Below, piece after piece: positions 46,260 to 55,019 of a stretch of DNA of 64,000 bases. Numbering within the stretch: the stretch's first letter is position 1; every line of letters starts with the position of its first letter. The position numbers were made by a program, and so were the translations under genes. Location of the stretch: positions 133,424,001 through 133,488,000 of the forward strand of contig NC_135888.1 of assembly GCF_964194155.1 (NCBI RefSeq). Reading direction: 5' to 3'. The notes under the pieces were generated by a model. It had not been told where the DNA came from and did no database searches. It worked only from the letters and a program-made list of their open reading frames with translations. Source of the DNA: Cetorhinus maximus. Its lineage: Eukaryota.

Positions 46260-46955
46260 AAAGACATACATTTATATAGCACCTTTCACCACTGCAGGAG
46301 AACCCAAAGTGCTTTTAACAAATGTGGAAATTCTTTTGCTGTTGTAATTTAAGAACCAGAGCAGCGCAGTCACACACAGCGAGAGCCCATGAATAGCGAT
46401 GTGATAATAACAAGATAATCTGTTTTAGGATAATCTGTCCCAGGATACAGGGTGAACGCCACCCCCCCACTCCCGTGCCCCCTGCTCTTTGACAAGTCAA
46501 TGCAGTGGATCTTGCACATTCACCTGAGAGGGCAGATGAGGGCTTTGGTTTACTGTCTCACCTCAACATCTGGAACAGCTCCGACAGTGCAGCAATCCCT
46601 CAACCAGAACAGAAAATGCTGGAAAAAACTCAGCAGGCCTGACAGCATCTGTGGAGAGAGAAGCAGAGATAACGTTTCGAGTCCGTATGACCCTCCTTTC
46701 GAGCTCTGAAGAAGAGACATGTGGACTCGGAATGTTAACTCTGTTTCTCTCTCCACAGTTGATGTCAGACCTGCTGAGTTTTTCCCAGCATTTTCTGTTT
46801 TGTTTCAGATTTCCAGCATCTGCAGCATTTTGCTTTTATCTCGGCAGTCCCTCAGCGTTGGCACTGGGAGTGTCAGCCTGGATGATATGCTCAATTCCCA
46901 GCAGTAGGGGCTTGAACCCATGACCTTCTGAGTCAGAGACCAGAGCCATAGCCGA
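46260..46955 (-). mobile_element. Deu-domain SINE split by a palindromic insertion
   Basis: Tail catttatatagcacctttcac, core and tRNA head cttgaacccatgaccttctga are all present. Confidence 0.8.
46603..46843. mobile_element. Palindromic Penelope-derived element (inverted pseudo-LTRs, one degenerate hammerhead per arm)
   Basis: aacagaaaatgctggaaaaactcagcagg..aacgtttcgagtc..gagctc..gactcggaatgtt..cctgctgagttttcccagcattttctgtt; TSD gcaatccctca (46592-46602) / gcagtccctca (46844-46854). Confidence 0.8.
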
Positions 46956-50951: not shown

Positions 50952-52900
50952 AGGAGCAGCACCAGGCATACCTAAAAATGAGGTGTCAACCTGGCGAAGC
51001 AGTAACACGGGATTACTTGCATGCCAAACAGCATAAGCAGTGATAGACAGAGCTAAGCAATCCTGCAACCAACAGATCAGATCTAAGCTCTGCAGTCCTG
51101 CCACATCCAGTTGTGAATGGTGATGGACAATTAAACAACTCACTGGACGAGGAGGCTCCACAAATATCCCCATCCTCAATGATGGAGGAGCCCAGCACAG
51201 CAGTGCAAAAGATAAGCCTGAAGCATTTACTACAATCTTCAGCCAGAAATGCCAAGTAGATGATCCATCTCAGCCTCCTCCGGAGGTTCCCAGCATCACA
51301 GATGCCAGTCTTCAGCCAATTCAATTCACTCCACGTGATATCAAGAAACGGCTGAAGGCACTGGATACTGCAAAGTCTATGGGCCCTGACAATATTCCGG
51401 CAATAATACTGAAGACTTGTGCTCCAGAACTTCCCACGCCCTTAGCCAAGCGGTTTCAGTACAGCTCCAACACTGACATCTACCCGGCTATGTGGAAAAT
51501 TGCCCAGTTATGTCATGTACACAAAAAGCAGGACAAATCCAACACAGCCAATTACCGCCCCATCAATCTACTCTCCATCATCAGTAAAGTAATGGAAGGG
51601 GTCATCAACAGTGCTATCAAGCGGCACTTGCTCGGCAATAATCTGCTCACTGATGCCTAGTTTGGGTTCCGCCAGGGTCACTCAGCTCCTGACCTCATTA
51701 CAGCCTTGGCTCAAACATGGACAAAAGAGTTGAACTCCCGGGGTGAGGTGAGAGTGACTGCCCTCGACACCAAGGCTGCATTTGACCGAGTGTGACATCA
51801 AGGAGTCCTAGCAAAACTGGATTCAATGGGAATCAGGGGGAAAACTCTCCAGTGGTTGGCGTCATACCTAGCACAAAGGAAGATGGTTGTGGTTGTTGGA
51901 GGTCAGTCATCTCAGCTCCAGGACATCACTGCAGGAGTTCCTCAGGGTAGTGTCCTCGGCCCAACCATCTTCAGCTGCTTCATCAATGATCTTCCTTCCA
52001 TCATAAGATCAGAAGTGGGGATGTTCTCTGATGATTGCACAATGTTCAGCACCATTCACAACTCCTCAGATACTGAATCAGTCCATGTCCAAATGCAGCA
52101 AGACCTGGACAATATCTAGGCTTGGGCTGACAAGTGGCAAGTAACATTTGCGCCACACAAGTGTCAGGCAATGACCATCTCCAACAAGAGAGGATCCAAC
52201 CATCGTTTCTGGATGTTCAATGGCATTACCATCACTGAATCCTCCACTATCAACATCCTGGGGGTTACCATTGACCAGAAACTGAACTGGACTAGACATA
52301 TAAATACTGTAGCTACAAGAGCAGGTCAGAGGCTAGGAATTGTGCGACAAGTAACTCACCTCCTGACTCCCCAAAGCCTGTCCACCATCTACAAGGTACA
52401 AGTCAGGAGTGTGATGGAATACTCCCCACTTGCCTGGATGAATGCAGCTCAACAACACTCAGGAAGCTTGACACCATCCAGGACAAAGCAGCCCACTTGA
52501 TTGGCACCACACCTGCAAATATTCACTCCCTCCACCACCGACGTACAATAACAGCAGCGTTTACCATCTACAAGACGCACTGCATGAATTCACCAAGGCT
52601 CCTTAGACAGCACCTTCCAAACCCAAAACCACTACCATCTAGAAGGACAAGGGCAGCAGATAAATGGGAACACCACCACCTGGAAGTTCCTCTCCAAGTC
52701 ACTCACCATCCTGACTTGGAAATATATCGCCGTTCCTTCACTGTCGCTGAGTCAAAATTCTGGAACTCCCTCCCTAACAGCACTGTGGGTGTAGCTACAC
52801 CACATGGACTACAGTGGCTCACCACCACCTTCTCAAGGGCAGTTAAATGCTGGCCCAGCCAGCGAAGCCCACATCCCATGAATGAATTTTTTTAAAAATT
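50952..52900 (+). mobile_element. Family A LINE, RT domain to 3' end
   Basis: GPDNIPAIILKTCAPEL, NYRPINLLS, GVPQGSVLGP, FSDDCT. Confidence 0.95.
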
Positions 52901-53120: not shown

Positions 53121-53293
53121 CCAGCTTATATTTCACCCCTCTCCTATTTTTACTTAGTTCTGTTGAAGGGTCATGAGGACTCAAAACGTCAACTGTGCTC
53201 TTCTCCGCCGATGCTGCCAGACCTGCTGAGTTTTTCCAGGTATTTTTTATTTTTTGTTTTGGATTTCCAGCATCCGCAGTTTTTTGTTTTTAT
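53121..53293 (+). mobile_element. Penelope pseudo-LTR fragment with a hammerhead fold (53156-53194)
   Basis: AGTT-CTGTTGA-A-GGGTC-atgag-GACTC-AAAA-cg-TC-AACT; tail homologous to 46740-46840. Confidence 0.78.
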
Positions 53294-54086
53294 CACAGGT
53301 GGGAAGAATGTCCCGCCCAACTTGTGCAATTTTAAAGTGATCTATTATTCCAAGAAATCTGCGTGCGCAAGGGAGAAATGGAACTCTGCCAAAGGAGCCT
53401 CCATCCAAGAAATTCAAGACTCTGGCGACCTGGAAAGCACTTTCCTAGGAGAAATAACAGAAATCACGGATTATGAAAACCAGCTTTGAAGTGCTGACAT
53501 TAAAGTAAATGGGCATCTCACTGAATTCAAACTAGACACAGGAGCGGATGTCTCAGTGTTATCTGAATAAGTTTCATGGCTGAATGATGTAAATCTGCAA
53601 CCTCCCTCTAACTTCAAGGTGCAGGAGGTGTCACAATAAGAGCATTAGGGCAGATGCAAGCTTTCCTTCACTATCATGGGAGTGAGATCATTGATACCCT
53701 GTATGTCCTTCCAAATCAGCAGTGTTCTTTATTAAACAGACATGCTTGTGCGGCTTTGAATCTCCTCTACTCCCCAGCTGCGGCCGAAACTGAAGTCAAC
53801 TCATTACGTAGTGAGCCAGTCTTTATTGAAGAAACATCATCCACTAGACCGCCGGAAGGAGATTGCAGATCTTTCACTTCTCTTTGAGGACAGGACAGGA
53901 GAGGTGGAAACAGAATGCGCCAACAATGACGGTGATCAGCCGCTCGAGGAACTTCTGGGCCTGGGTTTGCTCTTTCGAGAAAGAGTTCAAGAGAATGAAG
54001 CCACCGCAGAGGCAGATCTGTTGGAAGAAGAGGTCATGGACCTTACTACACTCCTTGACTCCACTGCCAATGATCGTGAAGCCTTT

Positions 54087-54284
54087 AATAAAAACAGAAA
54101 ATGCTGGAAAAACTCAGCAGGTCTGACAGCATCTGTGGAGAGAGAAACAGAGTTAACGTTTCGAGTCTGTAATTCCCTTCTTCAGAGCTCGAAAGGTTAA
54201 CTCTGTTTCTCTCTCCACAGATGCTGTCAGCATTTTCTGTTTTTATTTCAGATTTCCAGCATCCGCAGTATTTTGCTTTTATAC
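54087..54284. mobile_element. Palindromic Penelope-derived element with an intact-core hammerhead on the minus strand
   Basis: Exact 12-bp TSD CGTGAAGCCTTT (54075-54086, 54285-54296); inverted arms centred on gagctc; minus strand gagct-CTGAAGA-a-gggaattacagactc-GAAA-cg-TT-aactc. Confidence 0.88.
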
Positions 54285-55019
54285 CGTGAAGCCTTTGTTG
54301 CCTCTTTTGAGGTGAATTGTCCTTTGGTTGAAGATGGTAACAAAGAGATGAATTTGCCTGCTTATTCCACTGAACCCACTGCTGACATGCATCAACAATT
54401 ACAAGCAGCCGGCAAAAAGCTACGAGGCTCTTAACTCCAAATTGAATCAAACCAATAGCGAATGTTCAGAATGGCAATTAGACCTTCTGGGGCACTTTCT
54501 CCTGAGTTGAGTTTGTAGAGCCGGGTATTTTCCCGAACCTGTCCTCCCGACTCAGGAGCAAAAAATTCAGGCCTAAGTGTGAGTTTTAAAAGCCCTAGAG
54601 TAGGCCAAGGATGTGCCTCATGGAGATGAAGATGCTCCATAGTGATGAGCACTTGGAGAGTGAGCTTGGGGGTGAAATTCAAATTTGGCAGCTGAAAGTT
54701 CAGAATGAGTGATAGTGGATTCCCCGCCCATCATACAAGCTACATGTGTGTCCTGAGAGACTCAGTTCTATTGTTCAGGAGGGAAGGCGGGGATGAGATA
54801 CCTCAGGAATTGGTGGCAAGCTGATGCCAAATTTTGTTTGAAAGTGCGACATTAGAAGGAGGAAGCAAGGAGCTCCCTAGCGTCAAGTTACATTTGCTTC
54901 CTTCCATTATGTCTTGGGCCAGTTTATACCTCTTACCCCCTGGAGCCAATAGTCCCAACAGGAGACGAATCCCAACAGGAGATCGATCCCAACCGAAGAT
55001 CAATTCAAACAGAAGGTCA

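What the first reader, a model, noticed from the sequence alone, without database searches (positions are those of the whole stretch)
54075..54296. Mobile ~200-bp palindromic hammerhead-ribozyme element with a perfect 12-bp TSD
Seen: a 198-bp fold-back insert flanked by CGTGAAGCCTTT twice. The minus strand (54150-54190) keeps the hammerhead core CUGAAGA..GAAA..GUU with a 2-nt CG loop III; the other arm lost its core by a deletion at ctc microhomology. Known: Penelope-like elements carry minimal type I hammerheads in their pseudo-LTRs, often make inverted 5' copies, and are proposed to cleave as dimers via palindromic loop III. Inference: the palindrome is itself a unit of retrotransposition (a retrozyme/SINE-like non-autonomous family) that places a ribozyme on each strand.
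Basis: partly seen in the sequence, partly recalled or inferred. Interest (0 to 1): 0.7.

Follow-up and report, generated by a model that had tools for sequence, protein, structure and literature searches.

The report
Back-to-back Penelope retroelement end, not unit
This 198-base mirror-image insert is real but is two back-to-back ends of a very abundant, known kind of jumping gene (Penelope-like), likely built at landing when both cut DNA strands copy the front of the same RNA; its self-cutting RNA motif is worn and predicted to be inactive, so it is not a new ribozyme element.

Summary
Insert, TSD and one hammerhead core are real; 37 of 39 paralogs of the host repeat are empty at the site. 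The 'fixed palindromic unit' is not supported. Both arms are the pseudo-LTR of an EN+ Penelope-like element with a Neptune-type linker. Among 90 copies sampled without regard to their centre, 28 are short head-to-head pairs of 141-270 bp and none has this centre. It occurs 10 times genome-wide against 18,940 uninverted, with either tail polarity and 11 haplotypes. Mechanistic clues: the 35-nt tail sits on exactly one arm in 28 of 28 pairs, the arms share source variants, and 5' ends pile up where the hammerhead begins, 31 nt after TATAAA. This fits two-strand priming on one RNA (inferred). The hammerhead here has a decayed stem II and lies inside a hairpin. The layout is published, and this scan noted it before on other DNA (158 notes). 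Extra: three independent insertions hit this same target site among 40 host paralogs.

The parts
54075..54086 (+). Left target-site duplication (12 bp perfect; 54073-54086 if read as 14 bp with one mismatch)
54087..54189 (-). Tail-less pseudo-LTR arm, element positions +103 back to +1 (+1 = A of AGCT at 54189)
54151..54189 (-). Minimal type I hammerhead motif: stem I 5' 54189-54186, CUGAAGA 54185-54179, stem II 54177-54163 (3 of 5 pairs left), GAAA 54162-54159, palindromic CG, predicted cut after GUU between 54155 and 54154
   Evidence: sequence; layout per PMC4209133
54188..54190 (.). Head-to-head junction; 2-3 nt microhomology (CT or CTC) between +1 of one arm and +25 of the other
54188..54282 (+). 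Tailed pseudo-LTR arm, +25 to +138, lacking the 5' half of the hammerhead, with a 19-nt CAG..CAG deletion at about 54228-54230
54248..54282 (+). 35-nt Penelope 'tail' (+104 to +138), on one arm only
   Evidence: PMC8557442, PMC11167929
54285..54296 (+). Right target-site duplication (54283-54296 if 14 bp)
53860..54400 (+). Host repeat interrupted by the insert (at least 40 paralogs at about 80% identity; probably an LTR-retrotransposon relic, weak gag zinc-knuckle hit only; right edge not mapped); the site is an insertion hotspot

Best explanation
The insert is two head-to-head copies of the hammerhead-bearing end (pseudo-LTR) of an abundant endonuclease-bearing Penelope-like retrotransposon, likely assembled anew at this site rather than copied as a ready-made palindrome. 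Shown: the arm is the end of long copies that encode RT plus GIY-YIG; centres are heterogeneous; one arm ends near +103 and the other near +138-143; both arms share source variants; TSDs are mostly 14-15 bp; 5' ends cluster at +1/+2. Inferred: the element's protein (predicted dimer in PMC11167929) nicks both strands about 14 bp apart, and each 3'-OH primes reverse transcription on the same RNA, one at each of the two internal start sites that bound the tail. Both cDNAs run toward the RNA 5' end (probably a transcription start 31 nt after TATAAA, where the hammerhead begins) and anneal by 2-6 nt of microhomology. The template was uncleaved RNA. This copy's ribozyme is a decayed passenger that would be buried in the hairpin if transcribed.
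For: Arm continues upstream into RT and GIY-YIG frames in L131 (Pfam RVT_1 E 0.0016, GIY-YIG E 0.0008, both below cut-off). A sister subfamily, 87% identical over 2 kb, has 924-925-aa open frames (11 of 150 scored) flanked by the same arm (RVT_1 at cut-off). Tail on exactly one arm: 28 of 28 unselected pairs, 22 of 22 same-centre pairs, 14 of 15 perfect palindromes, versus 30 of 62 unpaired copies tailed; also 7 of 7 full-length elements with an inverted 5' arm. Arm-to-arm agreement at four variable sites 110 of 134 versus shuffle mean 0.57, maximum 0.71 of 2000; 30 of 35 in perfect palindromes. Tailed arm is the 5'-shorter one in 16, longer in 4, equal in 8 of 28. 31 of 57 arms that reach +6 end within -5..+6 (0.049 per nt versus 0.005-0.010 in flanking bins); only 3 of 81 end at +33..+36, the predicted cut. 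Target flanks are roughly mirror-symmetric, T-poor before and A-poor after the TSD. In vitro, a related element extends both strands from two adjacent internal sites and does not need hammerhead cleavage (PMC11167929).
Against: No biochemical test; the in vitro data are for a Poseidon-clade element, not this clade. Same-source arms could also come from two RNAs of one highly expressed locus. Site +14 agrees in only 8 of 14 pairs. Four of 28 pairs have the longer 5' reach on the tailed arm, and clips arms at +1. Centres may have been reshaped after insertion (arms differ by 9-11%). TATAAA is exact in only 8 of 14 long copies shown, the +1 site also looks like a splice acceptor, and no extra cap-derived G was evident. 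The 5'-end caller misplaces some long copies with indels (vs 47). The sample is the first 91 of 1,372 exact matches, all on one contig.
Confidence: 0.72

Rival explanations
1. One reading: the ~200-bp palindrome is a non-autonomous unit (retrozyme/SINE-like) that retrotransposes whole.
For: The same centre recurs in at least 22 other copies; a perfect-palindrome centre stands at 369 loci; outer ends are fairly constant and TSD-flanked.
Against: 0 of 28 unselected pairs have this centre; 10 exact junctions versus 18,940 uninverted (the control also counts a sister subfamily and allows three degenerate bases); both tail polarities and 11 haplotypes among same-centre copies; lengths form a continuum; constant outer ends are the two RT start sites seen in single arms too.
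Confidence: 0.04
2. For the centre of this copy only: it landed as the common perfect palindrome (both arms to +1, overlapping at AGCT) and later lost 22 nt between two CTC repeats by slippage in the hairpin.
For: The perfect centre is about 37 times commoner (369 vs 10 exact 22-mers); the same arm has a second microhomology deletion; deletion predicts both tail polarities, as seen.
Against: Direct annealing of a +1 cDNA end to +25 gives the same letters; many other centres hold filler or unequal ends that no single deletion explains.
Confidence: 0.4
3. The mirror half arises by fold-back self-priming (of the cDNA, or on an antisense template as proposed in PMC3846280), not by priming from both target strands.
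For: Explains same-source arms and one-sided tails; the junction often sits on the palindromic AGCT.
Against: Fold-back of a tail-primed cDNA needs the tailed arm to reach furthest 5'; it is the shorter arm in 16 of 28 and in this copy. The tail-less arm stops at the same +100-107 site used by single arms.
Confidence: 0.14
4. Two RNAs held together through the palindromic hammerhead stem III each template one arm.
For: Co-folding predicts a dimer through AACGUU; minimal hammerheads are proposed to act as dimers (PMC4209133).
Against: Independent RNAs would not by themselves force one tail per insertion (28 of 28) or shared variants.
Confidence: 0.12

Closest known systems
EN+ Penelope-like element insertions with inverted pLTR, one-sided 30-40-bp tail and TSD (Adineta vaga Pen2a_Av, PMC3846280; general scheme, PMC8557442 Fig. 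2 legend)
   Same: Head-to-head inverted pLTR, tail on one end, TSD, overlap or palindrome at the inverted junction, TATA-like box in the pLTR.
   Different: Here the coding body is absent: only the first 100-140 nt of each arm remain. Tail coupling, 5'-end clustering and site reuse are counted here.
Neptune (or Nematis) clade PLEs, CX2-5CxxC linker before GIY-YIG (PMC8557442)
   Same: C-terminal GIY-YIG with CxxC between its motifs, DKG motif, CX4CxxC linker.
   Different: No tree was built; the microsatellite targeting described for the clade is not seen in these TSDs.
Minimal type I hammerheads of metazoan PLEs (PMC4209133)
   Same: Core boxes, extra base after A9, G10.1-C11.1 pair, palindromic CG in place of stem III, short stem I. 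That paper also notes paired motifs 100-700 bp apart on opposite strands.
   Different: This subfamily has a C-A mismatch in stem I and a GUU triplet; this copy has lost two stem II pairs.
PAc (Anolis Poseidon) in vitro mechanism (PMC11167929)
   Same: Two adjacent internal RT start sites bounding the tail, both strands extended, uncleaved RNA as template.
   Different: That paper reports no difference in start site between strands and does not test coupling within one insertion; different clade.
Non-LTR retrozymes (bioRxiv 10.64898/2026.07.22.740005; PMC7229834 seen as a listing only)
   Same: Non-coding, type I hammerhead, derived from PLE pLTRs.
   Different: Retrozymes are head-to-tail tandem units with a hammerhead per unit; this is a single head-to-head pair with one worn core.

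Membership tests
EN+ Penelope-like element (pLTR fragment) | Sequence is the pLTR of an element encoding RT with C-terminal GIY-YIG | tested here: met
   L131 and other long copies; intact sister ORFs flanked by the arm. GIY-YIG Pfam scores are below the curated cut-off; the motif is visible.
EN+ Penelope-like element (pLTR fragment) | Direct and inverted pLTR layout with optional 30-40-nt tail and TSD | tested here: met
Neptune/Nematis clade | CX2-5CxxC linker upstream of GIY-YIG | tested here: met
   CX4CxxC in 3 of 3 intact ORFs checked and in L131/L113 frames
Neptune clade | RT phylogeny with reference Neptune elements | not tested
   No reference sequences were fetched.
Penelope/Poseidon clade | Absence of the CX2-5CxxC linker | tested here: not met
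   Linker present; my early 'Poseidon' label in the notebook was wrong.
Minimal type I hammerhead | Core boxes CUGANGA / GAAA / NUH with palindromic 15.2-16.2 | tested here: met
   Sequence; family census
Minimal type I hammerhead | Stem II and stem I able to pair | tested here: inconclusive
   Family: 5-bp stem II with both-side changes (GAGUC/GACUC 12, GGGUC/GACUC 18, GGGCC/GGCUC 18, GGGUC/GACCC 3 of 61 descriptor hits; the descriptor demands pairing). This copy: 3 pairs, misfolds as monomer. No Rfam hit.
Minimal type I hammerhead | Self-cleavage | not testable with these tools
   Needs an assay; no excess of 5' ends at the predicted cut (3 of 81).
Non-LTR retrozyme | Head-to-tail tandem units, each with a hammerhead | tested here: not met
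   Single head-to-head pair, one core
Fixed non-autonomous unit (SINE-like) | Shared internal junction, polarity and lineage across copies | tested here: not met

The most novel reading that the evidence does not exclude
Penelope-like elements integrate by coupled two-site twin priming: one protein dimer makes a sequence-preferring cut with about 14 bp stagger and primes each strand at a different one of two fixed sites on one RNA. The short palindromes are then double 'strong-stop' copies of the transcript's 5' end, which begins at the hammerhead. This would explain the inverted pLTR and the one-sided tail of the whole class, and the thrice-used site here offers a natural substrate to test it.
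Probability: 0.55. Interest if true: 0.5.

Novelty: new member of a known kind. Interest (0 to 1): 0.22.

Why it matters
As an object it is ordinary: one of roughly several hundred thousand insertions of related families (about 43 in 464 kb sampled; rough extrapolation). It is not a new mobile ribozyme. Its value is as a footprint. How PLEs make inverted ends and one-sided tails is stated to be undefined (PMC8557442 passages), and the copy census gives sharp predictions (one tail per pair, same-template arms, about 14-bp stagger, a reused target) that the existing in vitro PLE system could test directly.

Tried and rejected
Rfam scan: no hammerhead family; only sub-threshold miRNA hairpin matches. 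Public runs were assembled contigs only, so laying them gave no transcript start, splice joint or empty allele. Cap-G test: of 37 truncated copies 27 have G directly before CTCTG (14 AG, 8 TG, 5 GG), so no clear extra G. Spliced template: letters between TSD and +2 differ from copy to copy, no shared upstream exon seen; splicing is not excluded. Cleaved RNA as template: no pile-up at +36. A permuted hammerhead cutting just before +1 was considered by eye and dropped because stem III does not pair. BLAST hits to the query were not used for frequencies because they favour its centre. Rows dropped before the pair count: L117 (single arm with its own TSD inside another element), one of the two L137 rows (same insertion), six copies whose inverted arm lies far off or on a long copy (L080, L086, L111, L139, L146, L164). 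Host repeat: Pfam gave only zf-CCHC_5 at E 0.011 for 1 of 2 frames. Look-up of earlier findings by sequence was blank.

Full report
Observation. The 12-mer CGTGAAGCCTTT flanks a 198-bp insert at 54087-54284. The insert folds back on itself (z = -13.8, 0 of 200 shuffles). The flank belongs to a dispersed host repeat (40 best hits of 245 candidates). Of the 39 other paralogs, 37 have no insert at the site and 33 of these show the 12-mer once in exact register, so the TSD is genuine. With one mismatch it is 14 bp, the family mode (lengths 9-16; 14 in 16 and 15 in 11 of 51 pairs with a TSD, out of 64 pairs found; this set mixes selected and unselected loci). Rfam gave no hammerhead match.

What the arm is. 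The genome is 4.0 Gb; that it is a shark is my recall of this repeat plus earlier notes, not a call result. A profile of the arm finds 57 arm hits in 464 kb (about 43 insertions by my count, the window included), in several subfamilies. A 48-mer of this subfamily occurs 1,372 times exactly. I examined the first 91 matches (90 insertions, all on contig C1). About a quarter run upstream past -120, several for 1-1.6 kb, into broken RT and GIY-YIG frames. A sister subfamily, 87% identical over 2 kb, has intact 924-925-aa frames (11 of 150 scored hits). Among 20 of these fetched, the arm forms the direct pseudo-LTRs and, in 7, an inverted 5' copy. The ORF has RVT_1 at the cut-off, a GIY-YIG match below it, DKG and a CX4CxxC linker. 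That linker marks Neptune or Nematis and excludes Penelope/Poseidon (PMC8557442).

Is the palindrome a unit? No. Of the 90 insertions 28 are short head-to-head pairs (rows dropped are listed under Tried and rejected). Those with a TSD measure 141-270 bp; none has this copy's centre and two share the perfect-palindrome centre. Genome-wide exact 22-mers: this centre 10, perfect centre 369 loci, uninverted continuation 18,940 (degenerate at three places and including a sister subfamily). The 22 same-centre copies gathered carry the tail on the core-bearing arm in 8 and on the other arm in 14, and show 11 haplotypes among 18 fully scorable rows. Fifteen of the 369 perfect palindromes were examined and are mixed in length and haplotype as well. 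Recurrent centres are therefore best read as recurrent microhomology joins, or later deletions, near a common 5' end.

How it likely forms. Numbering +1 at the A of AGCT: 3' ends are bimodal, +100-107 or +138-143, the two ends of the known PLE tail, which in vitro are the two RT start sites (PMC11167929). Unpaired copies are tailed in 30 of 62 cases, yet pairs have exactly one tail in 28 of 28, 22 of 22 and 14 of 15 (chance about 0.5 per pair, my arithmetic). The two arms share variants at 110 of 134 comparisons against a shuffle maximum of 0.71, although site +14 agrees in only 8 of 14. The tailed arm is 5'-shorter in 16, longer in 4 and equal in 8, which argues against fold-back of a tail-primed cDNA. 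5' ends cluster: 31 of 57 arms reaching +6 stop within -5..+6, five to ten times the rate in flanking bins, and only 3 of 81 stop at the predicted ribozyme cut (this caller misplaces some long copies, compare). TATAAA lies at -31 in the majority sequence (exact in 8 of 14 long copies shown). Target flanks are roughly mirror-symmetric. Inference: a dimer nicks both strands about 14 bp apart, each strand primes at one of the two sites on one uncleaved RNA, both cDNAs run to near the RNA 5' end and anneal. A transcription start at +1/+2 is the likeliest cause of the cluster, but the site also resembles a splice acceptor (in D. virilis an intron ends at helix I, PMC4209133), no cap-derived G was evident, and the public RNA runs were contigs that could not decide.

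The ribozyme. Across subfamilies stem II varies with both-side changes, and intact copies fold a 5-bp stem II and co-fold through AACGUU. This copy keeps 3 pairs and misfolds as a monomer. In a transcript of the whole insert, imposing the hammerhead geometry costs 30.6 kcal/mol against the hairpin. It is probably inactive; untested.

Hotspot. Two of the 39 other host paralogs hold independent insertions of other subfamilies starting at the same target base: L227, a 332-bp head-to-head pair with the same TSD and polarity, and L253, a single arm. At about one insertion per 11 kb, two such hits within one base either way are expected with P near 1e-4 or less (my arithmetic). This points to sequence preference of the endonuclease.

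Prior knowledge. Inverted pLTR, one-sided tail and TSD are published (PMC3846280 and PMC8557442, passages only; PMC8969392, passages). I read parts 1-2 of 4 of PMC4209133 and of PMC11167929, passages of PMC2377424, and part 1 of 5 plus passages of the retrozyme preprint; no supplements were seen, and they may hold such copies. Searches for a twin-priming account of PLE inversions and for Neptune target preference listed nothing on point, judged from listings; Arkhipova 2006 and Evgen'ev and Arkhipova 2005 were seen only as citations and may cover it. My two-cDNA reading was written before the look-up. The scan holds 158 notes matching these words in at least 16 genomes and 46 in this genome, several with the same reading; they are not counted as support.

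Verdict. Interest 0.22; the mechanism reading would deserve about 0.5 if shown.

Noticed in passing
window 54073-54086; L227 (C27) and L253 (C3): Three independent Penelope-like insertions of different subfamily or structure start at the same base in 40 paralogs of one host repeat; suggests an endonuclease target preference.
   Followed up: partly
window 46602-46838: Second head-to-head pair of the same subfamily with a different centre, tail on one arm and an 11-bp TSD with one mismatch.
   Followed up: partly
window 53157-53292 (+): Single tailed arm of a sister subfamily whose core reads CUGUUGA.
   Followed up: no
L191-L210, e.g. L194:6658-6761: The youngest subfamily, with intact 924-925-aa ORFs, has the core CUGCCGA (position 6 C instead of A); others read CUGUUGA or CUGCUGA. 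Already noted by the scan.
   Followed up: partly
369 loci genome-wide; L211-L225: Perfect-palindrome centre where both arms reach +1 and overlap on AGCT, giving a full core on each strand; the commonest single centre found.
   Followed up: partly
G000:C10:133511134-133511414 (in L043): Head-to-head pair whose two arms belong to different subfamilies with 43 nt between them; perhaps a second insertion into an older arm.
   Followed up: no
window 51124-52895 (+): Broken frames resembling a LINE reverse transcriptase (label recalled, not searched).
   Followed up: no
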